64,000 nt of DNA from Giardia intestinalis (Eukaryota), in the NCBI GenBank assembly GCA_000002435.2, contig CM018789.1; one strand, given 5' to 3'. Made by a program: the position numbers and the translations under genes. How positions within the stretch are numbered: the stretch's first letter is position 1; every line of letters begins with the position of its first letter. Below the pieces are notes generated by a model. It searched no databases. It was not told where the DNA came from and saw only the letters and a program-made list of their open reading frames with translations. Below, in pieces: positions 26,107 to 46,523 of this stretch.

Positions 26107-26124
26107 GCCCGCGGACTCTCTGCT

Positions 26125-27543
26125 TTACTTCGACTGGAGGCTTGCTTGAAACGTTCGAGCGTCATGTAATTGTTGGACAGTACTCTTCCGAACAATCTTG
26201 TCCTGCCATCGACTAGCTGACTCGTTTCTAGAATCAATTGGAAGATTGTCGAGTACCGTGCCTCGTCGAAGGAGGTCTTTGCGAGAGTATTCCAAGATGT
26301 CTAGCTGGCTGACATCAGCATCATTCTCCGTGCTATTAAGAATGACATTTTCTGCGTTTGACGTAGCCAGTTGCTGTACTGCAACCTTTTTAAGACTAGG
26401 TTCAGAGGACAGTATGAGCTCTGACAGGGTACATGCATCTGGCTTCTCAGCAGAATTCTTCTTATCGCCGTGCTCACTTGCATGACTGGATTTGTTTGCG
26501 ACTAGCTTTTCGAAGAACCAAACTTCTCTGCCCCCGGAATCAAGAATGCAATTAGTTGCTTTCTTATAGCATAAAAGCCACTCCGAAAAGAGTCTGTGAT
26601 CATCCAGAACAGCATAGGCCTCCTCACATAGCCTTCTGATCATCGGGATGAGTGGGCACTTGGTCTCGATAATAGAGACATTCTTTTCGGCAAGACTTCT
26701 CCACTTGTTACTCAAGTTGTGGAATCGAGGGGTTTCTCGCACGGTGTCATGAACCCAATGGATAAGCTCTTCAAACACATAGACGCTTGGGGTGAAAGGG
26801 TGAATAAGAAGTCGGTGCATGGCCTCTGCTCGTAGGTAATTCCCTACTCCGTTGAACAATTCCTGAGACAAAAGAAGCCGGCATATGGGTTGTGAAAATA
26901 TCGACTTGGGTGGCACAATGAAAGACCCGTCAAGACCTATAGGAATATGTGACAGTTTGGACAGTATCTTGGACACATAGTCTAGGTACTGTGCCACAGG
27001 ATCAGGGGACCGTGCATGGTCGAAGTCTCCTACTCGCCAGTACATGGTCTCTGGCCGTGGCGAGCATACTGCTAACACAGCATCAGATGCCTCAAACAAG
27101 AGATGTGCGTTAGACTTCAAAGCTTCCTCTGGGGTTAAGAAGGTGTTGATACAGCCTGCTAATCCCAGGCCAATCACGATACTGGTTGGTATGGTAAGCG
27201 CCACAGCGTGATCTGAGTGTTCCCAGGGGCGGCTTAAAGCGGTTGTTTTGCACAAATCATAGGGTGTCTCTGAGGTGTCAGATGTATTTCTTTTCAGACG
27301 CACAAAAATACTCTTTGCCTCATTCCTAGGTGGATCAGCTGCCCGAGCCAGGTCAACTCGGAGCTGCTTGCCTCGAGATTCGCACCTTATGGTAAATGCT
27401 ACTTTTATGGAATCATCAAGGAACAAAGGTGGGAGGGCCTTATACACACACGCCCTCGAAGTAGAGACGTTAGTAAAGAGAGTGTGCTCTGCCTCAAACG
27501 TTATGCGTTCTGCGAAGGCTCGAACCTCAGGATGCTCTGGCAT
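26125..27543 (-). CDS. Fpg/Nei (NEIL)-family bifunctional DNA glycosylase/AP-lyase with an H2TH motif
   Basis: After the initiator Met the N-terminus reads PEHPEV (catalytic Pro2-Glu3, matching PELPEV in Fpg). A conserved RGKQL Lys sits about 59 residues in. H2TH reads LLLSQELFNGVGNYLRAEAMHRLLIHPFTPS, matching LLDQ..[23 protein letters not shown]. The track start at 27558 is TTG; the ATG at 27543 puts Pro at position 2. Confidence 0.75.
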   Translation of the reverse strand: MPEHPEVRAFAERITFEAEHTLFTNVSTSRACVYKALPPLFLDDSIKVAFTIRCESRGKQLRVDLARAADPPRNEAKSIFVRLKRNTSDTSETPYDLCKTTALSRPWEHSDHAVALTIPTSIVIGLGLAGCINTFLTPEEALKSNAHLLFEASDAVLAVCSPRPETMYWRVGDFDHARSPDPVAQYLDYVSKILSKLSHIPIGLDGSFIVPPKSIFSQPICRLLLSQELFNGVGNYLRAEAMHRLLIHPFTPSVYVFEELIHWVHDTVRETPRFHNLSNKWRSLAEKNVSIIETKCPLIPMIRRLCEEAYAVLDDHRLFSEWLLCYKKATNCILDSGGREVWFFEKLVANKSSHASEHGDKKNSAEKPDACTLSELILSSEPSLKKVAVQQLATSNAENVILNSTENDADVSQLDILEYSRKDLLRRGTVLDNLPIDSRNESASRWQDKIVRKSTVQQLHDARTFQASLQSK

Positions 27544-27547
27544 AAAA

Positions 27548-28072
27548 ATGGATAGCAACCCCCTCCTGGACTTTTTTGCTGCCCCACCACCTACCTCTCA
27601 GGAACTAGAAACACAACACTGGCCTTTTGGTGATGTGCACGCGCTCTTTAGGCATTTCAACGAGGCTTTTTTCGACAATTGCCTGAGAGATGTTGTGGTT
27701 CATTGGAGCAATAGGCTAACACGTTCTGCAGGTCTATGCAAATACAGAGGGACGCGAACAGAAGAGCATAGTCCTATTGTAATTATCCTATCTGCACCTC
27801 TACTCCAATATCGTTCACAACACGACCTGCTCGACGTGCTGGTGCATGAGATGATCCACGCCTACCTTTTCAGACTGAAGGTGTTCGAGCGAGTGCATCA
27901 CGGGCCCGTCTGGCACGCACAAGCGCACCGAATTAACCAGGCCGCTGGACTTACAATCCGTGCCTGCCACAACTACTACCAAGAGGTAAGATACATTGCG
28001 CACCAACGGGCTCTGAAGCGGGTTCCAGTCATTGATCTTAGCAATAGCACTATTGATCTCACCGATGATTAG
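27548..28072 (+). CDS. SprT-like zinc metalloprotease (Spartan/Wss1-type DNA-protein crosslink protease domain)
   Basis: LFRHFNEAFFDNCLRDVVVHWSNRLTRSAGLCKY...LLDVLVHEMIHAYLF...HGPVWHAQAHRINQAAGLTIRACHNYYQEV. This matches Spartan LFVQFNDQFFWGQLEAVEVKWSVRMTLCAGICSY...TLLHEMIHAYLF...HGPEF..HMHRIN. HEMIH zinc site. The track GTG start at 27275 was replaced by the ATG at 27548 (MDSNPLL). Confidence 0.8.
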   Translation: MDSNPLLDFFAAPPPTSQELETQHWPFGDVHALFRHFNEAFFDNCLRDVVVHWSNRLTRSAGLCKYRGTRTEEHSPIVIILSAPLLQYRSQHDLLDVLVHEMIHAYLFRLKVFERVHHGPVWHAQAHRINQAAGLTIRACHNYYQEVRYIAHQRALKRVPVIDLSNSTIDLTDD

Positions 28073-31000
28073 AGGTCTTGGGCGTGACGCCAACCACGAA
28101 GCTGTGAAGGTGTGCCACAACATGAATCTTCATGCATGGTTCCACGTGACTGCCTGTATATGATAAAGGCGATTTGCAGCTCTGCCTCTAAGTGTGTTAT
28201 GCTTTCAAATAACTTATACGTCATTCTTAGCTCCAAGTCGTGAATGCATGCTTCTTGAAATAATGTAAGAGCTTATTTTGCTTGCCAATTATCCTCCTCA
28301 TTCTTAGTGAGTCTGTGCACACCGCTTCTTATATATGAATTGCTTCTACACACCAGTATCACTGGTAGATTCTAGGGTACACAACGTGTTTCTGTACATG
28401 CTGGGACATCTTTCAACATTGCAGGTGGTACATACCATCCTGCATAGCCATCAGGGAATCTATTATTAGCCTATTATTAAAGTACTGTAAGAGCAATCAT
28501 GGACGGATATTAGTACTTTTCACGTAGGCCCTTAAAGTCGCCAGCTGTATACACGCTCCTCGGGGTTGTGGCCATCCTCCCTTGGGCTTCGTGCTTTTTG
28601 TAAGCATAGAGTGAAAGCACTTGCATTGGCAAACTAGGCAAACGCCAGATATGTCATGCTATGAACACGTTGAACGACGATGAATATCTTACAGAATAGG
28701 AAGATCTGCATCCAGCTATCGGTAACATAGACTTTCATAAGACATGTGAGCCGCACAGAAATACCACTGTAAATGTACTGAAAATCCACATGAGCATCGT
28801 CACATGGAGATAGAAAGCCATCTGAATGAACACTTTTGCGGGCTGCTTTGGTGCTTTGAAGAGACGCGAATGACTTTACGTCACTGTATGTTACAAACCC
28901 AACTGACCTTTCATGCCTTCCATGATGTAGTCTAGTCAGAACGAGCTGATTGTAGTCTTCCGATATATGCTTAAGGGCGCAAGGTGTAGATCAAATAGAT
29001 TGCTTTATTGCCTTCGAGAAAAGGACGGGCCTTGCTTTGCCAATACATAGATATGTGATAATAGACCAGGCAATCAGCAGTAAATGGAATACACGGCTAA
29101 TAGCTGCAAGACGCAGTCGTAAGCCTGGTTCTGCATGGGCAGCATCCAAATAGGGCCGTTGTCATGTCGGCTCTTTGCAGACGCATTGTGTACAGCAGTT
29201 ACGAGCTGCGCAACGGAAGGTCATAGGGGGTGAGGTTGTCTACTGCACCACGCCGCATAGAGGACAAATCAAGACCGACAGCACGAGAAAAGCGACAAGA
29301 ACAGTCGCTTTGTGTGCCTACTGGCAAGGACTTCGTGACAAACCCATATGGCGCAGAGCCTGGGATTGGCCTTGTCCACGTTCATGTTAGGGAGCGTGGG
29401 CCTTCAAGAGTTAGCCAGAAGTTGCACCAATTCTCAACTGGTACATGCCTTTATCCAGTGATGTCCAACGCGATGCTTTACATCCGTGCAAGCTTTGAGA
29501 TACTAATTTCACCGACTCGTTGTGACTCAAGGCGTCCAACTCGTTATAATATTGAGGCAAGGATTGAACTGAGTAACTGATTGCTAGGGAAATTATGCCA
29601 TCACTATCACAACTAGCTTGAATCGTGAGAGAAGTTTGTACTGACAAGATTAAGCGGCCCAACCAGCACATGAGAAGAGTCTGTCCCTTATGATACTTTG
29701 ACCACCAAAGGGAAGGTAATGGATCCACGGTCATTGTTTCTGATGTAGCAAGTAGCGCCTGCAATAGATGGCTAGATCATAAATGATATTATGGTTATGG
29801 CGTGTCACGCAATTGAGCACGAGTAAGATTGCAGACTGGCCCAACCTTAACTAGAGATCCAAACAAACAGACAACCAGCAGAGTAAAGATTGTAAGAGCA
29901 ACTAAACGTCAAATCTGTAAACGGCTTAAGTTTGGTGAGTGGCATGAAAAATGGTCACTGAGCCTATCGTTTTTAGCTAATGTGGAACTTTTAATCTTGT
30001 AAGGCTAAGGTTGTTTTATCTCTTGTTGCTGACAACAAGCCCCTGCATAAGCTACGTAATAATCATCTATACTACTGCCGCGCTACTGTTCTCTGGATAA
30101 GTATCGATTGACTAAAGACAGACCCGTTGTCATAGATACATTGTGAGAAGGCTGATACTAGAAGCTTGTCTGTCGAGTTTGCATGTTCTATTTATGGAGA
30201 CTTCCGATGGCAACCTTTATGTAGAGATATGGATGGTCTAGGAAACTGAGCCATTAGCGCTTCAGTCGCCGTCTTACAAAAAACAGATTGCAAAAAGTAG
30301 ATGCGAAGTAGGATATTTGGTAGTTGCTGATTAGTGGGCATGATACCCAAGAATCCATGGAGCCGTTACCCAATTTTCCAAATTACAATAAGCAGCTTGC
30401 TTTGTTGACCCGGGACTGGTATCAAAAGATGTCTGGTAATCACAGAATGCTTTTAAAGTGATCTTGTGTGGCAAAATGCTTATGACGTGAATGAAATGAG
30501 CTGTAGGTTAAAGCAGGCAGCTTCCTATACTCATAAAATCGTCCAGCAGAGTGTCCTACAGCCTTGTACGGTTATACTTGACCATCTATTATTTCCCAGC
30601 ATAAGCACAACAAGTCCTCATTACAAAAGTGGGCGCTTTATTCTTCATTCAATACCAGATTGCATATTATGCCAGACAATTATCATGCAACGGCTGATAA
30701 AGATTTATATGACCTGGCAGGACATACGAGTGCCGTTAACATTAAGGTGCGCGTAGATAGTGCATATTTGACCCAGCAAAGATAAAGTCAACCAGAGTCA
30801 GAAAAGGGGAAAGAGAAAATGGAAGCCACCATACTCCACAGACTTCTATCATGTTTTATACGCGTGGATGCTGAATTAACCAGGTGCTCAGACGCAAGGT
30901 ATTTGCTGTAAGACACTTAGGAGCTGTAGCTTGACGCATACAGGTGACATACTATAGTTATGCTGAATAACGCGGAGGTATCGATGAGTGGACGCACAAG

Positions 31001-32592
31001 TATTGAAGGCGATGAGCCACAGGGGCTTCTATGAACTGCTCACGGTGAGTGGAAGTACCGTAGATACCTTCACTACCAGGCACGCTTAACCCAATCTAGA
31101 ATTAGTATAAAGCATAGAGTTGGACGGACCTAGGTTGCGTCTAGTAAAACGTAGGACACTTCTAAGAGCTCAACTTAAGGATGGCGAGGCGGCCCTGTAA
31201 CCCTGCATAGCTGGCCTTGCATCCAATAAAGACTAGGGGCTGAGTGGCACATATGTTCGTCATCCAGCATGGCGAATAGCCCGTGGAGCGGCAAGATCAA
31301 TCTTTCCTAGACGAGCAACACGTAGTGAGTGTTCGACCAGTACCAATGGGCAAGGGTTAATTCTCGCCATAACTGACGCCCGGACGGCAGAAGCCAATAG
31401 GAAAGACAGCTCTTACCGGAGCGGTGCTGGGGATGCTCTGCAAGTCAGAGCCAGAAGGGCCTGGTAGCCATACTGGTGCCTGCTGTCGTCGGGCAACCCT
31501 GTTAAAGAAGCAGCGGCTCCTCGAGCGGGGCAGCTTAGGGGCCCACTACGTTCTCCTATTCTGCAGCGCATATTGTCTACTGGCAGGGAGCTGATGTCTT
31601 TCGTGGTTGCATGGTCCTGCTCACACCAGAGACAGAGCCAGACGACGGAGAGTAGGAGACTGACTCCCAGTTGAGATCTGCTTATTCCAGGCCCAACCAC
31701 ACCGCAGTATGCATCCACATCGATCTACGGTAGGTGGCGGGCAGCTTGCAGGGTGGAATTGGCAGCCTGGGCGAATTAAGGGCGGCGGATGTATTGCTGC
31801 CTCATTCCATCAATAGCATGGTTGGCTTGCGAGATGGAAGCAGTGGTTGCGGCGAAGGCACGTGAGGCGTCCAGATGAAGCGGACTATACAGATCGCTTA
31901 ACAGCATTAAAAGTTGAAATGGTTACACTGCCCGCTTGCAAAGGTACATGGTTCGGCCTGCGAACACTGCGTGTTTACTGACGCAGACTGGCCTATTGGC
32001 AGTGCCTAACTGTCCTTGCCGGTGGCATTGCACAGCGAGTGCCCTGGAGGCGCCATCATGACTACGCTTTTCTGCTCTTTTGCTTACAGAGGCCATTACT
32101 GTCTGTCCGCTCATGACACCATAAACACACAAGGTCAATCCCCCTGGCACTTTACTCAGAGGTGCGCCGGCTCTTTCGGAGAAGCGCTTCTCTGTGTAGC
32201 TGTCTAGTGAACAGACCAGACACGGTGGTGCTATCAGCCAAGCCACTGCTGGGCAGAGCACACGGCCTGTATCTGCTCGTCTCGTGCTCTAGCCAGCCAC
32301 CCCGCGTGAGCATCTGGAGGCGTGCCTGGACATATGCGTGGTATTCTGCGGTGTGCACGGTCTCGTGTCCGCACAGTAGGCCAGCCAGGGAGCGTGTGCA
32401 GGCACGTCATGTGGCACCACGTCCTTTGTGGAATGCTGGAGGACCACACAGGCGAGGGTCTACCATCAAGATACGGACACGTTGCTTCCTGACATGGAAG
32501 GTCAATGAGGCTATCCAGATGGCCCAGCCACGGTAGAAGGCTAGCAGATGTGATCGTATTGGCCACCAGCACTGTCACTAATACCAACATGC
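28073..32592. other. 4.5 kb ORF-free, moderately AT-rich stretch (no ORF above about 117 codons in any frame)
   Basis: Stop codons are dense in all six frames. This contrasts with the near-zero intergenic spacing elsewhere in the window. Confidence 0.7.
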
Positions 32593-35400
32593 ATGATTAA
32601 TAGATCTAGCAGGGCCGCAATGTTGCTACTAGTTCTTTGCTTTTTGATGAGCGCTCTCGCTGCACAATGCAAGGGGCACCAGCACTCCAACTGCGCAACC
32701 GGCTGGTGCAGGGCGGTCCGTGGCGTCGAGGTCTGTATGAGGTGCAAAGCGGGCCACGTGCTGATCGACGGAGTGTGCGCTGATAACTCTGTTGTCTACG
32801 GCGCGGGGTCCGCCTGCCAGATTCTAAACTGCAAGCAGTGTAACGCGGACAACACGCAGTGCGAGCAGTGCGAGGACGGATACACGCCGAGCGCCGGGAA
32901 TACCCAGTGCAACGAGGACGCCGCGTCCGCCTGCCAGATTCTAAACTGCAAGCAGTGTAACGCGGACAACACGCAGTGCGAGCAGTGCGAGGACGGATAC
33001 ACGCCGAGCGCCGGGAATACCCAGTGCAACGAGGACGCCGCGTCCGCCTGCCAGATTCTAAACTGCAAGCAGTGTAACGCGGACAACACGCAGTGCGAGC
33101 AGTGCGAGGACGGATACACGCCGAGCGCCGGGAATACCCAGTGCAACGAGGACGCCGCGTCCGCCTGCCAGATTCTAAACTGCAAGCAGTGTAACGCGGA
33201 CAACACGCAGTGCGAGCAGTGCGAGGACGGATACACGCCGAGCGCCGGGAATACCCAGTGCAACGAGGACGCCGCGTCCGCCTGCCAGATTCTAAACTGC
33301 AAGCAGTGTAACGCGGACAACACGCAGTGCGAGCAGTGCGAGGACGGATACACGCCGAGCGCCGGGAATACCCAGTGCAACGAGGACGCCGCGTCCGCCT
33401 GCCAGATTCTAAACTGCAAGCAGTGTAACGCGGACAACACGCAGTGCGAGCAGTGCGAGGACGGATACACGCCGAGCGCCGGGAATACCCAGTGCAACGA
33501 GGACGCCGCGTCCGCCTGCCAGATTCTAAACTGCAAGCAGTGTAACGCGGACAACACGCAGTGCGAGCAGTGCGAGGACGGATACACGCCGAGCGCCGGG
33601 AATACCCAGTGCAACGAGGACGCCGCGTCCGCCTGCCAGATTCTAAACTGCAAGCAGTGTAACGCGGACAACACGCAGTGCGAGCAGTGCGAGGACGGAT
33701 ACACGCCGAGCGCCGGGAATACCCAGTGCAACGAGGACGCCGCGTCCGCCTGCCAGATTCTAAACTGCAAGCAGTGTAACGCGGACAACACGCAGTGCGA
33801 GCAGTGCGAGGACGGATACACGCCGAGCGCCGGGAATACCCAGTGCAACGAGGACGCCGCGTCCGCCTGCCAGATTCTAAACTGCAAGCAGTGTAACGCG
33901 GACAACACGCAGTGCGAGCAGTGCGAGGACGGATACACGCCGAGCGCCGGGAATACCCAGTGCAACGAGGACGCCGCGTCCGCCTGCCAGATTCTAAACT
34001 GCAAGCAGTGTAACGCGGACAACACGCAGTGCGAGCAGTGCGAGGACGGATACACGCCGAGCGCCGGGAATACCCAGTGCAACGAGGACGCCGCGTCCGC
34101 CTGCCAGATTCTAAACTGCAAGCAGTGTAACGCGGACAACACGCAGTGCGAGCAGTGCGAGGACGGATACACGCCGAGCGCCGGGAATACCCAGTGCAAC
34201 GAGGACGCCGCGTCCGCCTGCCAGATTCTAAACTGCAAGCAGTGTAACGCGGACAACACGCAGTGCGAGCAGTGCGAGGACGGATACACGCCGAGCGCCG
34301 GGAATACCCAGTGCAACGAGGACGCCGCGTCCGCCTGCCAGATTCTAAACTGCAAGCAGTGTAACGCGGACAACACGCAGTGCGAGCAGTGCGAGGACGG
34401 ATACACGCCGAGCGCCGGGAATACCCAGTGCAACGAGAACCCAGAAGCGCGGTGCAATACTCCCAACTGTAAGACCTGTGACAACCCCAAAACAGGCAAT
34501 GAAATCTGCACTAAATGTAATGATGGCGACTACCTCACCCCTACAAACCAGTGCGCACATGACTGCACAGCCATCAGCGGATACTACGGAGATACTGACA
34601 AGAAGTGTAAGCCATGCAGCCCTGAGTGCGCTGAGTGCGTTGGGCCAGCCAACAATCAGTGTAGTGCTTGTCCTGCAGGCAAGGCATTAACATATGGAGG
34701 TGGTGATCCTGCCCAAGGGGGCACCTGCGGGGATGCGTGTACGGCGGACAAGAACGGATGTAAGGTCTGTGGGGCAAGGATCGGCGGGACAGACTACTGC
34801 TCCCAGTGCTCAGTGGGTACTCAGGCTCCTCTGAACGGGGTCTGTACGGCCAACGCGCGTGCTCAGTTCTGCACACAAGTTACCAGTGGATCCTGCACGT
34901 CTTGTAGTGGGGGCTACTTCCTCAAGAATGGTGGCTGTTACCAGGCAGATAGACAGCCAGGCAAACAGATATGTACACTAGCTGATAGCAATGGTGGATG
35001 TCAGGCGTGTGCCAATGGTCTTCCTCCTAGTTCTTCTGACGTATGCCCCTCGTGTCATTTCACCTGCAAGACATGCTCGACCGCAGACATTGCAAATACT
35101 TGTACAACGTGTGCAACTGGGTACTACATGGTCGGATCAGGGCCAAACACATGTATTTCGTGTGAAAGTGACAGTGGAAGTGTCAAGGGAGTTGCTGGCT
35201 GCATGAGCTGCGCTCCTCCATCTAGCAATACTGGCTCCGTTCTCTGCTACCTCATGAACGGTGACAGTGCCGGCGGGAGCACGAATAAGAGCGGCCTTAG
35301 CACAGGTGCCATCGCTGGCATCTCTGTGGCTGTCATCGTCGTCGTCGGGGGACTCGTCGGCTTCCTCTGCTGGTGGTTCATCTGCAGGGGCAAAGCGTAG
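32593..35400 (+). CDS. VSP: Variant-specific surface protein (VSP), 935 aa, with 14 tandem 39-aa repeats
   Basis: Signal peptide MINRSSRAAMLLLVLCFLMSALAAQ. Numerous CXXC motifs. C-terminal TM helix AIAGISVAVIVVVGGLVGFLCWWF followed by the invariant CRGKA-stop. Confidence 0.95.
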   Translation: MINRSSRAAMLLLVLCFLMSALAAQCKGHQHSNCATGWCRAVRGVEVCMRCKAGHVLIDGVCADNSVVYGAGSACQILNCKQCNADNTQCEQCEDGYTPSAGNTQCNEDAASACQILNCKQCNADNTQCEQCEDGYTPSAGNTQCNEDAASACQILNCKQCNADNTQCEQCEDGYTPSAGNTQCNEDAASACQILNCKQCNADNTQCEQCEDGYTPSAGNTQCNEDAASACQILNCKQCNADNTQCEQCEDGYTPSAGNTQCNEDAASACQILNCKQCNADNTQCEQCEDGYTPSAGNTQCNEDAASACQILNCKQCNADNTQCEQCEDGYTPSAGNTQCNEDAASACQILNCKQCNADNTQCEQCEDGYTPSAGNTQCNEDAASACQILNCKQCNADNTQCEQCEDGYTPSAGNTQCNEDAASACQILNCKQCNADNTQCEQCEDGYTPSAGNTQCNEDAASACQILNCKQCNADNTQCEQCEDGYTPSAGNTQCNEDAASACQILNCKQCNADNTQCEQCEDGYTPSAGNTQCNEDAASACQILNCKQCNADNTQCEQCEDGYTPSAGNTQCNEDAASACQILNCKQCNADNTQCEQCEDGYTPSAGNTQCNENPEARCNTPNCKTCDNPKTGNEICTKCNDGDYLTPTNQCAHDCTAISGYYGDTDKKCKPCSPECAECVGPANNQCSACPAGKALTYGGGDPAQGGTCGDACTADKNGCKVCGARIGGTDYCSQCSVGTQAPLNGVCTANARAQFCTQVTSGSCTSCSGGYFLKNGGCYQADRQPGKQICTLADSNGGCQACANGLPPSSSDVCPSCHFTCKTCSTADIANTCTTCATGYYMVGSGPNTCISCESDSGSVKGVAGCMSCAPPSSNTGSVLCYLMNGDSAGGSTNKSGLSTGAIAGISVAVIVVVGGLVGFLCWWFICRGKA
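32809..34446 (+). repeat. Perfect tandem array of 14 x 117 bp inside the VSP CDS. Each unit encodes ACQILNCKQCNADNTQCEQCEDGYTPSAGNTQCNEDAAS.
   Basis: Unit boundaries were counted directly: tccgcctgccag recurs every 117 nt from 32809 to 34330. Units are identical at the nucleotide level. Confidence 0.95.
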
Positions 35401-35404
35401 ATGT

Positions 35405-35419
35405 ACTTAGATAGTAAAC
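35405..35419 (+). promoter_or_regulatory. Extended VSP polyadenylation signal ACTTAGATAGTAAAC, 5 nt after the VSP stop
   Basis: Matches the conserved VSP 3' motif ACT-Py-AG-Pu-TAGT-Pu-AA-Py, which contains the general Giardia AGTAAAC signal. Confidence 0.7.
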
Positions 35420-35946
35420 GCGTCACTGTATAAAGCATATTATACTGTGATGGGGCCCTGCCTGTGGGAGCGTCCAGAAATCCCACGAGTAAGTCTCGCC
35501 CACGTCTTGGCCAATCTGAGAGCGAGAACTGGTTGTAGACAGCAAGCAGGGACTCCTCTTTATTAGTGTATCTAAAACTTGGCACCTTCTCCGGTCGCTC
35601 TGTGGGTGTGTGCTCAGTCTGGGTGTGCACGTCGGCCGTTTCGGGGTTCAGGCCTTCTCGCAGACTCTCTGGTCCACCAGTGGCGCCTCTCCTTGGTCTT
35701 CCTTCACGGTGAGTGAAGCCCGGGCCGCTGTCTTTTTTAGATGCCCCCGTCTGTCAGGGGCTGCCATCGGGCTCTCCGCTGGCTGGGCCCCTCGGTGTCC
35801 GTCCGGCTGTGGTTCTGGGTCAGCGCTTCCACAGTCGCGGTCACTTGGGTCTCAGTGGGCCGGCTGGTGGGTGGGGCGGGGGTATGGGCGGTGAGGACTG
35901 GTGGGACCGGGTGGGGGCTGAGATTGGTGTCCGTATGTGCTCCTGG

Positions 35947-37551
35947 GTTCGGTGGGCCATTGCGGCGGTGGGTGATCCCCTCTCTGTTTGCCAAGGTGGT
36001 TGTGTCTGATCCCCAGCCTTCGTTGCACTCCCGAGACACAGGCACCGACGATCGTGTCGTGTCCCCTGACTGAGCGCCTCCCTTGGCCCCTGCATGCCTC
36101 GGGCAGTACTGCTGCTCTGGTTGACTGGTACATGAGGGATGAGGCAGGCCATCGCAGCCTCTCCTGCTACTCGCTGATGCTCTGTGCGGGTCTGCTGGGC
36201 CCCTGGCATGCCCTGTCCAGTGCCTCGACGTAGTTCACCTCGGCCAGCAGGGGTGTGGATGAGCCGGTGGATGGGATGGGTTCTCTCAGGCCTCTAGTGT
36301 GATGGCCCAGAAGACTGGCACGGTGGGGCACTGGTGGCTGCACTGTCCCCGTGGTCAGCTGTGCTGCTCCTGGTGGGTCCTTGTCATGGAGCGCTGTGTG
36401 TTGTTCATAGGCAGAGGTGAGCCTCCTTGGTTTCAAGATGCTCTACCATGCAGAGAGGAGCACGCTGAGGGTCACCCATACCTCACATCTGCTGTGCCCG
36501 TTCGGGAGTTCCCGGTGTGGTCCACCAGGACCTTGACACCTCTCGTGGCTCTGATGACCCCTCGAGGAGAGCCGGGGTGTCCTATGCCAGGGGAGGCGTG
36601 CACCCTCCTGCATGAGCTGGGACCCACTGCACTGCCCTCAAGGAGGTCTGCTATGAGAGGCAGTGGGATGATTGACGGCCCCAGAGTGCGGTGGAGGGTG
36701 CTCGTGGTCATCTCTTGTGATCGGGCATCACTCTGATGGCCAGCTCTGTGCCTGTGTGGTGCTCAGAGGCCACCTGTCTGCCTCATCGCCTGCTGGACAG
36801 CCGGGTCTCTTGTGGTGTCCGAAGGCCTCCTCACTCCTCTGGCTGCTGCCCCCTCGGGTCATCAATGAAGACAGTCGAGGCCAGCGGAGTCTTCGGTGAG
36901 TCTGGTGCCTGCCTGGGTGTCATGGGGGCTGGCAGCTGTCAGGGCTCTGCCACTGCTCACCTGCCTGGAGTGTGCCTCCCTTGGACCTACTGTGCTGCGT
37001 GAGTCCTCTGGCTTCCTATCAGGCCCTGACTGTGAGGGTGACCCCACCTGGTCCTCTGATGCCCCTGTGGATGAGCATAGCAATGTGTCTGATTGAGGAT
37101 CTCTGGTGCCCGTGTCTGTTGCTGCCTCTCGGGTGCTCGGGTAGTTGCCTGGCACTCTCGTATGGGGGCACAGTCAGCGTGTCCCGAGCAGACTCCAGTC
37201 CTCTCTGGGTCCACACAGTCTGTTCGTGTGTGGATGATCCTCCTGCACTCAGGTCCATCTGTGCACACTATCACTCAGCCTCGAGAGCAGGCCAGTGCAG
37301 TCGCCAGGGTTGCTGTCAGAGGGAGTCGTCTGCCACTACATCGCTCGAGCAGACTCTACAGATCAGGCTGGCTGCTGTGCACCCTCATGGCAGGGCTGCC
37401 TGACTCCCCTTGGTCATCCTCTCTGTCCCGGTGTGCACGGCTCCTGAGGGTTGTCTGGGTGGAGGCACTCACAGACCACGAGCACACAGAGGGGTGAGTC
37501 ATAGATGGACAGCCATCAGTCACCACAGCTGCGATCACCCCAGTCTATCGA
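35947..37551. other. Unique 1.6 kb spacer between the inverted-repeat arms. GC-rich (about 60%) and strongly A-depleted on the + strand. Only short overlapping ORFs of low-complexity C/W/R/G/P-rich translation.
   Basis: No mirror copy exists. The composition continues that of the inner end of the left arm and flips abruptly at about 37552. Confidence 0.7.
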
Positions 37552-38073
37552 GGGACCAGGGGCACATACAGACACCCACCACCCGGTCCCACCAGTCCTC
37601 ACCGCCCATACCCCCGCCCCACCCACCAGCCGGCCCACTGAGACCCAAGTGACCGCGACTGTGGAAGCGCTGACCCAGAACCACAGCCGGACGGACACCG
37701 AGGGGCCCAGCCAGCGGAGAGCCCGATGGCAGCCCCTGACAGACGGGGGCATCTAAAAAAGACAGCGGCCCGGGCTTCACTCACCGTGAAGGAAGACCAA
37801 GGAGAGGCGCCACTGGTGGACCAGAGAGTCTGCGAGAAGGCCTGAACCCCGAAACGGCCGACGTGCACACCCAGACTGAGCACACACCCACAGAGCGACC
37901 GGAGAAGGTGCCAAGTTTTAGATACACTAATAAAGAGGAGTCCCTGCTTGCTGTCTACAACCAGTTCTCGCTCTCAGATTGGCCAAGACGTGGGCGAGAC
38001 TTACTCGTGGGATTTCTGGACGCTCCCACAGGCAGGGCCCCATCACAGTATAATATGCTTTATACAGTGACGC

Positions 38074-38088
38074 GTTTACTATCTAAGT
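38074..38088 (-). promoter_or_regulatory. Mirror copy of the VSP polyadenylation signal (ACTTAGATAGTAAAC on the - strand)
   Basis: Reverse complement of 35405-35419 at the symmetric position (sum 73493). Confidence 0.7.
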
Positions 38089-38092
38089 ACAT

Positions 38093-39379
38093 CTACGCTT
38101 TGCCCCTGCAGATGAACCACCAGCAGAGGAAGCCGACGAGTCCCCCGACGACGACGATGACAGCCACAGAGATGCCAGCGATGGCACCTGTGCTAAGGCC
38201 GCTCTTATTCGTGCTCCCGCCGGCACTGTCACCGTTCATGAGGTAGCAGAGAACGGAGCCAGTATTGCTAGATGGAGGAGCGCAGCTCATGCAGCCAGCA
38301 ACTCCCTTGACACTTCCACTGTCACTTTCACACGAAATACATGTGTTTGGCCCTGATCCGACCATGTAGTACCCAGTTGCACACGTTGTACAAGTATTTG
38401 CAATGTCTGCGGTCGAGCATGTCTTGCAGGTGAAATGACACGAGGGGCATACGTCAGAAGAACTAGGAGGAAGACCATTGGCACACGCCTGACATCCACC
38501 ATTGCTATCAGCTAGTGTACATATCTGTTTGCCTGGCTGTCTATCTGCCTGGTAACAGCCACCATTCTTGAGGAAGTAGCCCCCACTACAAGACGTGCAG
38601 GATCCACTGGTAACTTGTGTGCAGAACTGAGCACGCGCGTTGGCCGTACAGACCCCGTTCAGAGGAGCCTGAGTACCCACTGAGCACTGGGAGCAGTAGT
38701 CTGTCCCGCCGATCCTTGCCCCACAGACCTTACATCCGTTCTTGTCCGCCGTACACGCATCCCCGCAGGTGCCCCCTTGGGCAGGATCACCACCTCCATA
38801 TGTTAATGCCTTGCCTGCAGGACAAGCACTACACTGATTGTTGGCTGGCCCAACGCACTCAGCGCACTCAGGGCTGCATGGCTTACACTTCTTGTCAGTA
38901 TCTCCGTAGTATCCGCTGATGGCTGTGCAGTCATGTGCGCACTGGTTTGTAGGGGTGAGGTAGTCGCCATCATTACATTTAGTGCAGATTTCATTGCCTG
39001 TTTTGGGGTTGTCACAGGTCTTACAGTTGGGAGTATTGCACCGCGCTTCTGGGTTCTCGTTGCACTGGGTATTCCCGGCGCTCGGCGTGTATCCGTCCTC
39101 GCACTGCTCGCACTGCGTGTTGTCCGCGTTACACTGCTTGCAGTTTAGAATCTGGCAGGCGGACCCCGCGCCGTAGACAACAGAGTTATCAGCGCACACT
39201 CCGTCGATCAGCACGTGGCCCGCTTTGCACCTCATACAGACCTCGACGCCACGGACCGCCCTGCACCAGCCGGTTGCGCAGTTGGAGTGCTGGTGCCCCT
39301 TGCATTGTGCAGCGAGAGCGCTCATCAAAAAGCAAAGAACTAGTAGCAACATTGCGGCCCTGCTAGATCTATTAATCAT
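38093..39379 (-). CDS. VSP: VSP, second copy, 428 aa, with a single 39-aa repeat unit. Otherwise identical to the 935-aa copy.
   Basis: Same signal peptide, same post-repeat Cys-rich region, TM helix and CRGKA tail. The length difference of 1521 nt equals 13 x 117. Confidence 0.92.
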   Translation of the reverse strand: MINRSSRAAMLLLVLCFLMSALAAQCKGHQHSNCATGWCRAVRGVEVCMRCKAGHVLIDGVCADNSVVYGAGSACQILNCKQCNADNTQCEQCEDGYTPSAGNTQCNENPEARCNTPNCKTCDNPKTGNEICTKCNDGDYLTPTNQCAHDCTAISGYYGDTDKKCKPCSPECAECVGPANNQCSACPAGKALTYGGGDPAQGGTCGDACTADKNGCKVCGARIGGTDYCSQCSVGTQAPLNGVCTANARAQFCTQVTSGSCTSCSGGYFLKNGGCYQADRQPGKQICTLADSNGGCQACANGLPPSSSDVCPSCHFTCKTCSTADIANTCTTCATGYYMVGSGPNTCISCESDSGSVKGVAGCMSCAPPSSNTGSVLCYLMNGDSAGGSTNKSGLSTGAIAGISVAVIVVVGGLVGFLCWWFICRGKA

Positions 39380-42300
39380 GCATGTTGGTATTAGTGACAG
39401 TGCTGGTGGCCAATACGATCACATCTGCTAGCCTTCTACCGTGGCTGGGCCATCTGGATAGCCTCATTGACCTTCCATGTCAGGAAGCAACGTGTCCGTA
39501 TCTTGATGGTAGACCCTCGCCTGTGTGGTCCTCCAGCATTCCACAAAGGACGTGGTGCCACATGACGTGCCTGCACACGCTCCCTGGCTGGCCTACTGTG
39601 CGGACACGAGACCGTGCACACCGCAGAATACCACGCATATGTCCAGGCACGCCTCCAGATGCTCACGCGGGGTGGCTGGCTAGAGCACGAGACGAGCAGA
39701 TACAGGCCGTGTGCTCTGCCCAGCAGTGGCTTGGCTGATAGCACCACCGTGTCTGGTCTGTTCACTAGACAGCTACACAGAGAAGCGCTTCTCCGAAAGA
39801 GCCGGCGCACCTCTGAGTAAAGTGCCAGGGGGATTGACCTTGTGTGTTTATGGTGTCATGAGCGGACAGACAGTAATGGCCTCTGTAAGCAAAAGAGCAG
39901 AAAAGCGTAGTCATGATGGCGCCTCCAGGGCACTCGCTGTGCAATGCCACCGGCAAGGACAGTTAGGCACTGCCAATAGGCCAGTCTGCGTCAGTAAACA
40001 CGCAGTGTTCGCAGGCCGAACCATGTACCTTTGCAAGCGGGCAGTGTAACCATTTCAACTTTTAATGCTGTTAAGCGATCTGTATAGTCCGCTTCATCTG
40101 GACGCCTCACGTGCCTTCGCCGCAACCACTGCTTCCATCTCGCAAGCCAACCATGCTATTGATGGAATGAGGCAGCAATACATCCGCCGCCCTTAATTCG
40201 CCCAGGCTGCCAATTCCACCCTGCAAGCTGCCCGCCACCTACCGTAGATCGATGTGGATGCATACTGCGGTGTGGTTGGGCCTGGAATAAGCAGATCTCA
40301 ACTGGGAGTCAGTCTCCTACTCTCCGTCGTCTGGCTCTGTCTCTGGTGTGAGCAGGACCATGCAACCACGAAAGACATCAGCTCCCTGCCAGTAGACAAT
40401 ATGCGCTGCAGAATAGGAGAACGTAGTGGGCCCCTAAGCTGCCCCGCTCGAGGAGCCGCTGCTTCTTTAACAGGGTTGCCCGACGACAGCAGGCACCAGT
40501 ATGGCTACCAGGCCCTTCTGGCTCTGACTTGCAGAGCATCCCCAGCACCGCTCCGGTAAGAGCTGTCTTTCCTATTGGCTTCTGCCGTCCGGGCGTCAGT
40601 TATGGCGAGAATTAACCCTTGCCCATTGGTACTGGTCGAACACTCACTACGTGTTGCTCGTCTAGGAAAGATTGATCTTGCCGCTCCACGGGCTATTCGC
40701 CATGCTGGATGACGAACATATGTGCCACTCAGCCCCTAGTCTTTATTGGATGCAAGGCCAGCTATGCAGGGTTACAGGGCCGCCTCGCCATCCTTAAGTT
40801 GAGCTCTTAGAAGTGTCCTACGTTTTACTAGACGCAACCTAGGTCCGTCCAACTCTATGCTTTATACTAATTCTAGATTGGGTTAAGCGTGCCTGGTAGT
40901 GAAGGTATCTACGGTACTTCCACTCACCGTGAGCAGTTCATAGAAGCCCCTGTGGCTCATCGCCTTCAATACTTGTGCGTTCACTCATCGATACCTCCGC
41001 GTTATTCAGCATAACTATAGTATGTCACCTGTATGCGTCAAGCTACAGCTCCTAAGTGTCTTACAGCAAATACCTTGCGTCTGAGCACCTGGTTAATTCA
41101 GCATCCACGCGTATAAAACATGATAGAAGTCTGTGGAGTATGGTGGCTTCCATTTTCTCTTTCCCCTTTTCTGACTCTGGTTGACTTTATCTTTGCTGGG
41201 TCAAATATGCACTATCTACGCGCACCTTAATGTTAACGGCACTCGTATGTCCTGCCAGGTCATATAAATCTTTATCAGCCGTTGCATGATAATTGTCTGG
41301 CATAATATGCAATCTGGTATTGAATGAAGAATAAAGCGCCCACTTTTGTAATGAGGACTTGTTGTGCTTATGCTGGGAAATAATAGATGGTCAAGTATAA
41401 CCGTACAAGGCTGTAGGACACTCTGCTGGACGATTTTATGAGTATAGGAAGCTGCCTGCTTTAACCTACAGCTCATTTCATTCACGTCATAAGCATTTTG
41501 CCACACAAGATCACTTTAAAAGCATTCTGTGATTACCAGACATCTTTTGATACCAGTCCCGGGTCAACAAAGCAAGCTGCTTATTGTAATTTGGAAAATT
41601 GGGTAACGGCTCCATGGATTCTTGGGTATCATGCCCACTAATCAGCAACTACCAAATATCCTACTTCGCATCTACTTTTTGCAATCTGTTTTTTGTAAGA
41701 CGGCGACTGAAGCGCTAATGGCTCAGTTTCCTAGACCATCCATATCTCTACATAAAGGTTGCCATCGGAAGTCTCCATAAATAGAACATGCAAACTCGAC
41801 AGACAAGCTTCTAGTATCAGCCTTCTCACAATGTATCTATGACAACGGGTCTGTCTTTAGTCAATCGATACTTATCCAGAGAACAGTAGCGCGGCAGTAG
41901 TATAGATGATTATTACGTAGCTTATGCAGGGGCTTGTTGTCAGCAACAAGAGATAAAACAACCTTAGCCTTACAAGATTAAAAGTTCCACATTAGCTAAA
42001 AACGATAGGCTCAGTGACCATTTTTCATGCCACTCACCAAACTTAAGCCGTTTACAGATTTGACGTTTAGTTGCTCTTACAATCTTTACTCTGCTGGTTG
42101 TCTGTTTGTTTGGATCTCTAGTTAAGGTTGGGCCAGTCTGCAATCTTACTCGTGCTCAATTGCGTGACACGCCATAACCATAATATCATTTATGATCTAG
42201 CCATCTATTGCAGGCGCTACTTGCTACATCAGAAACAATGACCGTGGATCCATTACCTTCCCTTTGGTGGTCAAAGTATCATAAGGGACAGACTCTTCTC

Positions 42301-43899
42301 ATGTGCTGGTTGGGCCGCTTAATCTTGTCAGTACAAACTTCTCTCACGATTCAAGCTAGTTGTGATAGTGATGGCATAATTTCCCTAGCAATCAGTTACT
42401 CAGTTCAATCCTTGCCTCAATATTATAACGAGTTGGACGCCTTGAGTCACAACGAGTCGGTGAAATTAGTATCTCAAAGCTTGCACGGATGTAAAGCATC
42501 GCGTTGGACATCACTGGATAAAGGCATGTACCAGTTGAGAATTGGTGCAACTTCTGGCTAACTCTTGAAGGCCCACGCTCCCTAACATGAACGTGGACAA
42601 GGCCAATCCCAGGCTCTGCGCCATATGGGTTTGTCACGAAGTCCTTGCCAGTAGGCACACAAAGCGACTGTTCTTGTCGCTTTTCTCGTGCTGTCGGTCT
42701 TGATTTGTCCTCTATGCGGCGTGGTGCAGTAGACAACCTCACCCCCTATGACCTTCCGTTGCGCAGCTCGTAACTGCTGTACACAATGCGTCTGCAAAGA
42801 GCCGACATGACAACGGCCCTATTTGGATGCTGCCCATGCAGAACCAGGCTTACGACTGCGTCTTGCAGCTATTAGCCGTGTATTCCATTTACTGCTGATT
42901 GCCTGGTCTATTATCACATATCTATGTATTGGCAAAGCAAGGCCCGTCCTTTTCTCGAAGGCAATAAAGCAATCTATTTGATCTACACCTTGCGCCCTTA
43001 AGCATATATCGGAAGACTACAATCAGCTCGTTCTGACTAGACTACATCATGGAAGGCATGAAAGGTCAGTTGGGTTTGTAACATACAGTGACGTAAAGTC
43101 ATTCGCGTCTCTTCAAAGCACCAAAGCAGCCCGCAAAAGTGTTCATTCAGATGGCTTTCTATCTCCATGTGACGATGCTCATGTGGATTTTCAGTACATT
43201 TACAGTGGTATTTCTGTGCGGCTCACATGTCTTATGAAAGTCTATGTTACCGATAGCTGGATGCAGATCTTCCTATTCTGTAAGATATTCATCGTCGTTC
43301 AACGTGTTCATAGCATGACATATCTGGCGTTTGCCTAGTTTGCCAATGCAAGTGCTTTCACTCTATGCTTACAAAAAGCACGAAGCCCAAGGGAGGATGG
43401 CCACAACCCCGAGGAGCGTGTATACAGCTGGCGACTTTAAGGGCCTACGTGAAAAGTACTAATATCCGTCCATGATTGCTCTTACAGTACTTTAATAATA
43501 GGCTAATAATAGATTCCCTGATGGCTATGCAGGATGGTATGTACCACCTGCAATGTTGAAAGATGTCCCAGCATGTACAGAAACACGTTGTGTACCCTAG
43601 AATCTACCAGTGATACTGGTGTGTAGAAGCAATTCATATATAAGAAGCGGTGTGCACAGACTCACTAAGAATGAGGAGGATAATTGGCAAGCAAAATAAG
43701 CTCTTACATTATTTCAAGAAGCATGCATTCACGACTTGGAGCTAAGAATGACGTATAAGTTATTTGAAAGCATAACACACTTAGAGGCAGAGCTGCAAAT
43801 CGCCTTTATCATATACAGGCAGTCACGTGGAACCATGCATGAAGATTCATGTTGTGGCACACCTTCACAGCTTCGTGGTTGGCGTCACGCCCAAGACCT
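39380..43899. other. Mirror copy of the 4.5 kb ORF-free stretch
   Basis: Small track ORFs (68, 118, 124, 112, 63, 101, 96, 117, 116, 71 aa) mirror those of 28073-32592 exactly. Confidence 0.7.
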
Positions 43900-44424
43900 C
43901 TAATCATCGGTGAGATCAATAGTGCTATTGCTAAGATCAATGACTGGAACCCGCTTCAGAGCCCGTTGGTGCGCAATGTATCTTACCTCTTGGTAGTAGT
44001 TGTGGCAGGCACGGATTGTAAGTCCAGCGGCCTGGTTAATTCGGTGCGCTTGTGCGTGCCAGACGGGCCCGTGATGCACTCGCTCGAACACCTTCAGTCT
44101 GAAAAGGTAGGCGTGGATCATCTCATGCACCAGCACGTCGAGCAGGTCGTGTTGTGAACGATATTGGAGTAGAGGTGCAGATAGGATAATTACAATAGGA
44201 CTATGCTCTTCTGTTCGCGTCCCTCTGTATTTGCATAGACCTGCAGAACGTGTTAGCCTATTGCTCCAATGAACCACAACATCTCTCAGGCAATTGTCGA
44301 AAAAAGCCTCGTTGAAATGCCTAAAGAGCGCGTGCACATCACCAAAAGGCCAGTGTTGTGTTTCTAGTTCCTGAGAGGTAGGTGGTGGGGCAGCAAAAAA
44401 GTCCAGGAGGGGGTTGCTATCCAT
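43900..44424 (-). CDS. SprT-like zinc metalloprotease, second copy
   Basis: Identical translation to 27548..28072. ATG at 44422-44424 on the - strand. Confidence 0.8.
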   Translation of the reverse strand: MDSNPLLDFFAAPPPTSQELETQHWPFGDVHALFRHFNEAFFDNCLRDVVVHWSNRLTRSAGLCKYRGTRTEEHSPIVIILSAPLLQYRSQHDLLDVLVHEMIHAYLFRLKVFERVHHGPVWHAQAHRINQAAGLTIRACHNYYQEVRYIAHQRALKRVPVIDLSNSTIDLTDD

Positions 44425-44428
44425 TTTT

Positions 44429-45847: not shown

Positions 45848-45865
45848 AGCAGAGAGTCCGCGGGC

Positions 45866-46369: not shown

Positions 46370-46523
46370 GGCGGGGTGGGGCGGAAAAGCGTGCACCATG
46401 CGGGAGTCGGACCCGCCCCAACAGCTTGGAAGGCTGTCATGCTAGCCGATACACCAATGGTGCCCGGCGCGCCGCATAAACAGCGGATAAATTAGTATGT
46501 GCTTTGAATGGTCTGGTTCAGAT

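What the first reader, a model, noticed from the sequence alone, without database searches (positions are those of the whole stretch)
32593..39379. Tail-to-tail VSP paralogs identical except for 14 versus 1 copies of a 117-bp repeat
The two convergent VSP genes share signal peptide, Cys-rich C-terminal domain, TM helix, CRGKA tail and polyA motif without visible differences. They differ in length by exactly 13 x 117 bp. Repeat-number change is therefore occurring faster than point divergence between the copies. It produces a 935-aa and a 428-aa surface antigen from what is otherwise one allele. This is a ready-made axis of antigenic size variation.
Basis: seen in the sequence. Interest (0 to 1): 0.75.

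Follow-up and report, generated by a model that had tools for sequence, protein, structure and literature searches.

The report
Known Giardia VSP pair, repeat collapsed

Summary
The two convergent VSP genes are base-for-base identical except for a 1521-nt (13 x 117) in-frame indel: 13.93 perfect repeat copies against 0.93.

The window is Giardia intestinalis WB chromosome 1 (NC_051856.1). The genes are GL50803_0050392 (926 aa) and GL50803_00112647 (419 aa). Adam et al. 2010 listed them as the tail-to-tail pair vsp87.2/vsp87.1, with a 117-nt repeat on vsp87.2.

- The genes lie in an inverted segmental duplication of about 8.8 kb. It also copies two housekeeping genes, and the arms differ by one base in the perfect core.
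- The short gene equals the long gene minus 13 units in a single step. The long gene cannot be rebuilt from the short one without at least 3 changes per junction. The event was therefore probably a contraction.
- Translation most likely starts at the second ATG, inside the CAATGTT initiator, giving 926 and 419 aa rather than 935 and 428.

"Repeat change is faster than point divergence" rests on one indel against one base difference. VSP size variants caused by repeat copy number have been known since 1994 (vspA6 and vspA6-S1). Interest is low to moderate; the locus is mainly a clean natural marker for repeat dynamics inside a palindrome.

The parts
25597..35914 (+). Left arm of the inverted duplication, 10.3 kb including the full repeat array. 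The perfect match starts at 25602.
   Evidence: 100% complementary to the right arm apart from the 1521-nt indel, one internal mismatch (30991) and one mismatch at the outer edge
37579..46375 (-). Right arm of the inverted duplication, 8.8 kb. Its outer end truncates a WD40 gene copy, so it is judged the derived copy.
35915..37578 (.). Unique central spacer, 1664 nt, 61.5% GC. No Pfam domain in its ORFs and no other match in the window. About 30 nt of degraded symmetry at its edges.
32620..35400 (+). Long VSP gene GL50803_0050392 (XP_037901619.1), 926 aa, 43 CXXC motifs.
38093..39352 (-). Short VSP gene GL50803_00112647 (XP_001707111.2 / KAE8301640.1; vsp87.1), 419 aa, 17 CXXC motifs. An upstream in-frame ATG at 39379 gives 428 aa.
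32808..34437 (+). Tandem array of 13 identical 117-nt units plus 109 nt. Each unit encodes a 39-aa module with six cysteines: SACQILNCKQCNADNTQCEQCEDGYTPSAGNTQCNEDAA.
39056..39164 (-). The single 109-nt unit equivalent in the short gene. It is identical to the first 109 nt of every unit of the array.
32618..32624 (+). VSP initiator element CAATGTT overlapping the start codon of the long gene. The mirror copy is at 39348-39354 (-).
   Evidence: motif as listed for both genes in the preprint's supplement
35404..35423 (+). Extended VSP polyadenylation motif TACTTAGATAGTAAACGCGT, starting 4 nt after the stop codon. The mirror copy is at 38070-38089 (-).
   Evidence: the same 20-mer is listed for both genes in the preprint's table
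30991..30991 (.). The only base difference inside the arms: G here, A in the mirror position 40981. It lies in the ORF-poor stretch upstream of the VSP.
26125..28072 (.). Two housekeeping-type genes carried in the arm: a Fpg/NEIL-like glycosylase ORF 26125-27558 (-) and a SprT-like ORF 27275-28072 (+). Identical mirror copies are at 44414-45847 (+) and 43900-44697 (-).
25219..26106 (+). Intact WD40 gene that spans the left arm's outer boundary. Its 3' part is copied as a truncated fragment at 45866-46375 (-).

Best explanation
This is the catalogued Giardia intestinalis WB chromosome 1 VSP pair GL50803_0050392 / GL50803_00112647 (vsp87.2 / vsp87.1).

Anatomy. An 8.8-kb segment was duplicated in inverted orientation around a 1.66-kb unique spacer. 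The segment holds the 3' part of a WD40 gene, a NEIL-like gene, a SprT-like gene, 4.5 kb of ORF-poor DNA, the VSP gene and 514 nt of its 3' flank. The left arm is continuous with the intact WD40 gene and is the original. The right arm ends in a truncated WD40 fragment next to a tRNA-Gly gene and is the copy.

The event. The ancestral VSP already carried a multi-copy array of a 117-nt unit encoding a 39-aa, six-cysteine module. In the right-arm copy the array collapsed to a single unit in one in-register deletion of 13 units. The likely routes are unequal exchange, single-strand annealing after a break, or slippage or template switching during replication or during the duplication itself.

Arm identity. 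Everything else is identical either because the duplication is very recent or, as I think more likely, because recombination between the inverted arms keeps homogenising them. The latter is inferred, not shown.

Consequence. The locus encodes a 926-aa and a 419-aa VSP with the same leader, the same N-terminal domain, the same conserved C-terminal region of about 320 aa and the same membrane anchor. They differ only in the number of identical modules in a rod-like, disulfide-rich ectodomain. Giardia displays one VSP at a time, so the pair offers two sizes of one antigen with shared epitopes.
For: Shown:
- Identity and indel.
- Identity of the genes: XP_001707111.1/.2, KAE8301640.1; both genes with sequences, 926 and 419 aa, NC_051856.1, 14 repeats. 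link vsp87.1 to GL50803_112647 and show vsp87.2 flagged TTIPb_TR117.
- Adam 2010 Table 5 gives a 3' divergence point of 514 nt for pair 87, the same value as measured here.
- Direction of change: deleting 1521 nt at any of 110 in-register positions of the long gene gives exactly the short gene. The best amplification of any 117-nt segment of the short gene leaves 39 mismatches, 3 per junction, because the 8-nt linker GACGCCGC is absent from the short gene.
- Polarity of the duplication: intact WD40 gene on the left, truncated fragment on the right.
- Module nature: the unit has the same cysteine spacing as the adjacent non-repeated segment. The AlphaFold model (pLDDT 81) is all beta-hairpins, with weak but consistent matches to furin-like and EGF-like cysteine-rich repeats.

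Supporting recurrent homogenisation or turnover (inference):
- In the 2010 survey, identical VSP genes were found only as inverted pairs.
- Thirteen to twenty such pairs exist in WB and seven in G. muris.
- Spacers of different tail-to-tail pairs are reported as very similar to one another, and this one resembles the spacer of the 14586 pair on chromosome 5.
- Arm divergence in the perfect core is 1 in about 8800 nt, or about 0.011%. That equals the 0.01% allelic heterozygosity quoted for WB.
- Relatives in WB and in assemblage E isolate P15 carry 1, about 3 or about 5 copies of a homologous 35-40 aa module at the same position.
Against: - No reads were available, so copy numbers rest on the assembly.
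- The older Sanger-based analysis reported about 5-6 copies (623 aa) rather than 14, and an ORF-to-ORF distance of 2393 rather than 2692 nt. Some assembly-dependent uncertainty at this locus is therefore real.
- Gene conversion between the arms is inferred from patterns in the literature, not demonstrated. A very recent duplication explains the identity equally well for this one locus.
- The contraction argument is by parsimony. An older two-copy intermediate with a mutated linker, later amplified, is possible.
- The 2022 preprint treats the two genes as 'non duplicated' and states that no duplicated VSPs have repeats. The pair reading is therefore not the current annotators' view, although the sequence identity shown here is unambiguous.
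Confidence: 0.75

Rival explanations
1. Assembly artefact. Both arms really carry the same multi-copy array and one was collapsed. Alternatively, copy-number alleles among the four genome copies were mis-phased onto the two arms.
For: - Adam 2010 warns that VSP repeat numbers may be condensed by assembly and that identical pairs broke contigs.
- The same locus had about 5-6 copies in the older assembly against 14 here.
- Giardia is tetraploid, and structural variants are enriched at VSP genes.
Against: - The single-copy gene is present in two independent annotations: GL2.0 at 428 aa and the PacBio-based GL2.1 at 419 aa.
- The array is only 1.6 kb and lies 1.5 kb from the unique, asymmetric spacer. 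Reads of 4 kb or more can place each version on its own side (inference).
- The preprint's table lists non-zero unique-mapping RNA-seq values for 112647. Such reads can only arise by spanning the single unit (inference).
Confidence: 0.1
2. Expansion rather than contraction. The duplicated ancestor had one unit, and the left-arm copy amplified it to 14 after the duplication.
For: - The thirteen units are 100% identical, which fits very recent amplification.
- Relatives with a single module exist: P0007, P0021 and P0070.
Against: - A single 109-nt unit offers no 117-nt periodicity for slippage.
- Any simple amplification of the short gene leaves at least 3 mismatches at every junction, whereas one deletion converts long to short exactly.
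- The arm judged to be the original carries the array.
Confidence: 0.1
3. The anatomy and the contraction are as in the best explanation, but the arms are identical simply because the inverted duplication is very young. There is no ongoing gene conversion, and the array collapsed during the duplication event itself, for example through error-prone break-induced replication.
For: - There is only one base difference inside the arms.
- The arms include locus-specific housekeeping genes, so this duplication is not an old shared VSP cassette.
- Adam 2010 favoured recent duplication for the identical pairs.
Against: - It requires many independent, equally recent duplications to explain 13-20 perfect pairs in WB and 7 in G. 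muris.
- The reported similarity of spacers between pairs on different chromosomes suggests an older common origin.
Confidence: 0.3

Closest known systems
vsp87.1 / vsp87.2 of Giardia lamblia WB (Adam et al. 2010, BMC Genomics 11:424, PMC2996952); GL50803_00112647 / GL50803_0050392 in the GL2.1 reference
   Same: It is the same locus. The gene number is the same, the orientation is tail to tail, vsp87.2 carries a 117-nt repeat, the 3' divergence point is 514 nt, and the protein sequences are identical.
   Different: The 2010 table gives about 5 repeats and 623 aa, and 2393 nt between the ORFs. The window has 13.93 copies, 926 aa and 2692 nt. Later papers list the two genes as non-duplicated and omit them from the tables of pairs.
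vspA6 (CRP170) versus vspA6-S1 / vspG3M, as summarised in Adam 2010; original work Mowatt et al. 1994 Infect Immun 62:1213 (not held in the library)
   Same: The two VSP genes are nearly identical outside the repeat. One has about 23 copies of its tandem unit and the other a little more than one, giving antigenically related proteins of very different size.
   Different: The unit is different (195 nt against 117 nt). Those genes show scattered substitutions and are not described as arms of one inverted duplication. Here the two forms sit 2.7 kb apart in one palindrome with no substitutions.
Identical inverted VSP pairs such as vsp1267 (GL50803_00112208 / d112208)
   Same: The arrangement is tail to tail with about 2.6-2.8 kb between the ORFs. 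Divergence is abrupt about 0.5 kb after the stop codon, and the flanks are identical.
   Different: Those pairs have identical ORFs. This pair differs by the 1521-nt array indel. Here the upstream identity could be measured, at about 7 kb, and it includes non-VSP genes.
Large near-identical palindromes kept uniform by arm-to-arm gene conversion, such as the human Y-chromosome palindromes (from general knowledge)
   Same: There are two inverted arms with more than 99.98% identity around a unique spacer, and they contain genes.
   Different: The scale is kilobases rather than tens to thousands of kilobases. Conversion has not been demonstrated in Giardia at this locus.

Membership tests
Giardia variant-specific surface protein (VSP, Pfam PF03302) | Significant match to the VSP family profile | tested here: met
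   PF03302, E = 9.4e-101, 338 bits (cut-off 31.4); 623 homologues, nearly all named VSP.
Giardia variant-specific surface protein (VSP, Pfam PF03302) | C-terminal transmembrane helix followed by the cytoplasmic pentapeptide CRGKA | tested here: met
   both proteins end in ...AIAGISVAVIVVVGGLVGFLCWWFICRGKA; helix at residues 391-416.
Giardia variant-specific surface protein (VSP, Pfam PF03302) | N-terminal signal peptide and a cysteine-rich ectodomain with many CXXC motifs | tested here: met
   leader MLLLVLCFLMSALA; 12.6% Cys in the short protein and 14.1% in the long; 17 and 43 CXXC motifs. No signal-peptide predictor was run here; the preprint's table marks both as having a signal peptide.
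Giardia variant-specific surface protein (VSP, Pfam PF03302) | Initiator element (C/T)AATGTT at the start codon and the extended polyadenylation motif after the stop codon | tested here: met
   CAATGTT at 32618-32624 and 39348-39354; TACTTAGATAGTAAACGCGT at 35404-35423 and 38070-38089.
Giardia variant-specific surface protein (VSP, Pfam PF03302) | Mutually exclusive surface expression and switching | not testable with these tools
   This needs clone-level antibody or RNA data. Only bulk TPM values for 112647 were seen.
Identical inverted VSP pairs (Adam 2010; Xu 2020) | Two VSP genes in inverted orientation with 2-4 kb between the ORFs | tested here: met
   convergent genes, 35401-38092 = 2692 nt between the ORFs.
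Identical inverted VSP pairs (Adam 2010; Xu 2020) | Identical ORFs | tested here: not met
   the ORFs differ by a 1521-nt in-frame indel; all other positions are identical. Probably for this reason the pair is missing from Xu 2020 Table 2 and is called 'non duplicated'.
Identical inverted VSP pairs (Adam 2010; Xu 2020) | Flanks identical up to an abrupt divergence point a few hundred nt beyond the stop codon | tested here: met
   divergence at 514 nt after the stop codon, the same value as Table 5 for pair 87.
Repeat-containing VSP genes | In-frame tandem repeat of 105-516 nt in the ectodomain-coding part | tested here: met
   117 nt = 39 codons, 13.93 copies, beginning 188 nt after the annotated start codon.
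Palindromes homogenised by arm-to-arm gene conversion | Near-identical inverted arms around a unique spacer | tested here: met
   one mismatch in the perfect-core arm of about 8.8 kb (two over 8797 nt when the outer-edge mismatch is counted); 1664-nt spacer.
Palindromes homogenised by arm-to-arm gene conversion | Evidence of concerted evolution: arms more alike within a genome than orthologous arms are between genomes | not testable with these tools
   No other Giardia genome DNA could be fetched.

The most novel reading that the evidence does not exclude
The inverted VSP pairs of Giardia may be true recombining palindromes. Arm-to-arm exchange would keep them identical, flip the spacer, and move or resize tandem arrays between the two genes. 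A clonal, tetraploid population would then carry a ladder of sizes of this VSP. On this reading the 1, about 6 and 14 copies seen in different assemblies reflect real somatic variation, not only assembly error. This locus, with one large in-register indel as a built-in marker, would be the place to measure that rate.
Probability: 0.25. Interest if true: 0.5.

Novelty: already known. Interest (0 to 1): 0.25.

Why it matters
VSPs are the coat antigens that let Giardia persist in the gut, and their repeats were reported to be immunodominant for vspA6. This locus does not add a new principle: size variants made by repeat copy number, and identical inverted VSP pairs, are both in the literature.

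Its value is practical.
- It shows that current pair catalogues, which are based on identical ORFs, miss pairs that differ only by a repeat. The statement "no duplicated VSPs have repeats" is therefore too strong.
- It offers a clean internal marker, one 1.5-kb in-register indel in otherwise identical 8.8-kb arms. With it one could measure repeat contraction, arm-to-arm conversion and spacer inversion using long reads.

Tried and rejected
- Exact-protein look-ups for genomic context found nothing on record for the 428-aa and 935-aa ORFs, for P0001 or for P0006. No other Giardia locus, other isolates or other VSP pairs could therefore be compared at the DNA level.
- The 926-aa protein is not in the protein collection. 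It was identified from a preprint's supplement instead.
- A metagenome scan with the repeat-junction 37-mer gave 0 hits.
- A sequence search of the PDB gave 0 hits.
- A Foldseek search of the PDB gave only weak matches, with no E-value at or below 0.001. They are used only as a resemblance to furin-like and EGF-like repeats.
- Pfam on five spacer ORFs and five upstream ORFs gave no families. tblastn with the VSP protein found no VSP remnant in the spacer or the upstream stretch. I therefore could not confirm the preprint's label 'VSP like region' as coding similarity.
- Rfam at gathering threshold found only one tRNA.
- Mowatt 1994 (PMC186261) is not held in the library. It is cited only through Adam 2010.
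- The Be-2 and WB-C6 comparison paper does not mention either gene.
- I considered and rejected a role for the 571-aa antisense ORF 32796-34511. It exists only because the repeated unit has no stop codon on that strand and frame.

Full report
**1. Checking the observation**

The ORF list shows a 935-aa ORF at 32593-35400 (+) and a 428-aa ORF at 38093-39379 (-). Both have the same N-terminus, the same C-terminal region and the same CRGKA ending.

A direct comparison gives an identical prefix of 324 nt and an identical suffix of 1072 nt. Together these cover the short gene with overlap. The length difference is 1521 nt = 13.0 x 117.

Tandem Repeats Finder reports a single array at 32808-34437: period 117, 13.9 copies, 100% matches. 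Unit by unit there are 13 identical copies and a last copy that departs only in its final 8 nt. The short gene contains only the 109-nt unit equivalent, at 39056-39164.

**2. What surrounds the genes**

The identity does not stop at the genes.
- It continues 514 nt beyond each stop codon.
- It continues about 6990 nt upstream of each start codon.
- Inside this there is one mismatch, 30991 G against A at 40981.

With the array removed, the arms are 8797 nt long with 2 mismatches. One of those sits at the outer edge. Between the arms lies a unique spacer of 1664 nt, 61.5% GC. It has no other match in the window, no VSP-like coding remnant and no Pfam domain in its ORFs.

Each arm contains:
- the 3' part of a WD40 gene;
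- an ORF with weak Fpg/NEIL-type glycosylase matches;
- a SprT-like ORF;
- about 4.5 kb without long ORFs;
- the VSP gene.

The WD40 gene is intact on the left (25219-26106). On the right it is present only as a truncated fragment (45866-46375). That fragment abuts unique DNA 15 nt from a tRNA-Gly(TCC) gene. This gives the duplication a polarity: the left arm, which holds the 14-copy gene, is the original context, and the right arm, which holds the 1-copy gene, is the copy.

**3. Identity of the locus**

The short protein is 100% identical to a Giardia intestinalis WB VSP: XP_001707111.1 at 428 aa, and XP_001707111.2 / KAE8301640.1 at 419 aa. The latter lies on a 1,485,438-bp contig.

The supplement of Rodriguez-Walker et al. 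(bioRxiv 10.1101/2022.03.07.483299) lists two genes on NC_051856.1:
- GL50803_00112647: 419 aa, initiator caatgtt;
- GL50803_0050392: XP_037901619.1, 926 aa, 14 repeats.

Their sequences match the window.

Adam et al. 2010 (PMC2996952) list GL50803_112647 as vsp87.1, the first member of a tail-to-tail inverted pair. They list vsp87.2 as the second member with a 117-nt repeat (x5), at 623 aa = 428 + 5 x 39. Their 3' divergence point is 514 nt, exactly the value found here. One search confirms that VSP-87.1 is GL50803_112647.

The CAATGTT initiator overlaps the second ATG, at 32620 and 39352. The extended polyadenylation motif starts 4 nt after each stop codon. The likely products are therefore 926 and 419 aa, about 96 and 43 kDa.

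**4. Direction of the change**

Removing 1521 nt at any of 110 in-register positions of the long gene yields the short gene exactly.

The reverse does not work. The best attempt to build the long gene by amplifying any 117-nt segment of the short gene leaves 39 mismatches, 3 at each of the 13 junctions. The reason is that the 8-nt inter-unit linker GACGCCGC does not occur in the short gene, whose flanks read GGCGCGGG and AACCCAGA.

One contraction is thus the most economical account, and it falls in the arm judged to be the derived copy. The mechanism itself is inferred. Candidates are unequal exchange, single-strand annealing, or slippage or template switching, possibly during the duplication.

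**5. Why the arms are identical**

For this locus alone, a very recent duplication would be enough. Several published observations point to recurrent homogenisation instead:
- In the 2010 survey, identical VSP genes occurred only as inverted pairs.
- Nineteen to twenty perfect pairs are listed for WB, and seven for the distant species G. muris.
- Spacers of different tail-to-tail pairs fall into groups of very similar sequence, and this spacer resembles that of the 14586 pair on chromosome 5.

The arm-to-arm difference in the perfect core, 1 in about 8800 nt, equals the 0.01% allelic heterozygosity quoted for WB.

I could not test concerted evolution, because no other Giardia DNA could be fetched. 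I rate conversion as more likely than not, but unproven.

**6. The repeated unit**

The 39-aa unit has six cysteines with two CXXC motifs. Its cysteine spacing matches that of the next, non-repeated segment (ARCNTPNCKTCDNPKTGNEICTKCNDGDYLTPTNQCAHD).

An AlphaFold model of the short protein, built with 40 aligned homologues, has a mean pLDDT of 81. It consists of short beta-hairpins followed by the transmembrane helix. Its best PDB matches are weak (E of 0.008 or higher), but they are consistently furin-like repeats of R-spondin, the cysteine-rich domains of ErbB and IGF1R, and EGF-like arrays. This is a resemblance, not evidence of membership. It fits a rod of independent disulfide-bonded modules, so adding 13 modules should lengthen the ectodomain without disturbing the rest (inference).

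Relatives show the same habit. Three P15 proteins share the N-terminal domain and carry 1 or about 3 copies of a homologous 35-40 aa module. A WB paralogue with the same leader carries about 5 copies of a 35-aa module.

**7. Assembly question**

Repeat numbers in VSP genes are known to be condensed by assembly. The long gene had only about 5-6 copies in the Sanger-era analysis.

The single-copy gene, however, is present in both the old and the new annotation. The preprint's RNA-seq tables give 112647 non-zero unique-mapping values next to roughly ten-fold higher two-locus values. That pattern is what a real single-unit transcript would produce, though this is an inference.

Two discrepancies with Adam 2010 remain unexplained. 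The table gives 2393 nt between the ORFs against 2692 nt here. It also places 623 aa on the vsp87.1 row, although 112647 is 428 aa.

**8. Comparison with what is known, and verdict**

Three relevant facts are already published:
- the locus is catalogued;
- inverted identical VSP pairs have been known since vsp1267;
- a many-copy versus one-copy relationship between near-identical VSP genes is described for vspA6 and vspA6-S1, with size heterogeneity attributed to repeat copy number.

Later catalogues, which define pairs by identical ORFs, omit this pair and call it non-duplicated. The statement that no duplicated VSPs have repeats is contradicted in spirit by this locus.

The rate argument rests on one event against one base difference. 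It ignores the possibility of arm homogenisation and the evidence that the change was a single contraction. The two proteins share every epitope class, so this is size variation of one antigen.

I rate the finding as already known, with modest interest as a natural marker for repeat and palindrome dynamics.

Noticed in passing
window 46391-46463 (-): A tRNA-Gly(TCC) gene lies 15 nt outside the outer end of the right arm (46375). The junction where the inverted copy was joined to unique DNA is therefore next to a tRNA gene.
   Followed up: partly
window 45866-46399 (-): The truncated WD40 copy at the end of the right arm forms a 177-aa ORF. It picks up a new ATG and about 8 new codons in the unique flank, so it may be a chimeric or pseudogene product of the duplication.
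   Followed up: no
window 26125-28072 and 43900-45847: A Fpg/NEIL-like glycosylase ORF (weak Pfam matches below the curated cut-off) and a SprT-like ORF (E = 2.8e-25) are duplicated with 100% identity inside the arms. The palindrome therefore doubles the dosage of two DNA-repair-type genes.
   Followed up: partly
window 28100-32590 and mirror 39380-43870: About 4.5 kb upstream of each VSP has no open frame longer than 139 codons and no Pfam hits. GC is 42-46% over 28-31 kb and rises to 54-58% near the gene. The only arm-to-arm base difference (30991/40981) lies here.
   Followed up: partly
window 35915-37578: The spacer is GC-rich (61.5%) and has a strong negative AT skew. It has about 30 nt of degraded inverted symmetry at its edges, with a 10-nt indel. 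A preprint reports it as very similar to the spacer of another VSP pair on chromosome 5, which could not be checked here.
   Followed up: partly
window 32796-34511 (-): A 571-aa ORF runs antisense through the repeat array. It is a by-product of a unit without stop codons on that strand, not evidence of a gene.
   Followed up: yes
proteins P0003, P0005, P0007 (isolate P15) and P0008 (WB): These homologues share the leader or N-terminal domain of this VSP. They carry 1, about 3 or about 5 copies of a related 35-40 aa module at the same position. Every array ends in a copy of about 0.9 units, as it does here.
   Followed up: partly
literature versus window, pair vsp87: Adam 2010 gives 2393 nt between the ORFs and 623 aa on the vsp87.1 row. 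The window has 2692 nt, and GL50803_112647 is 428 or 419 aa. The 299-nt difference is not a multiple of 117.
   Followed up: no
window 7762-7811: A small imperfect 18-nt tandem repeat (2.5 copies) lies inside the 851-aa ORF 5853-8408 (-). It is unrelated to the finding.
   Followed up: no
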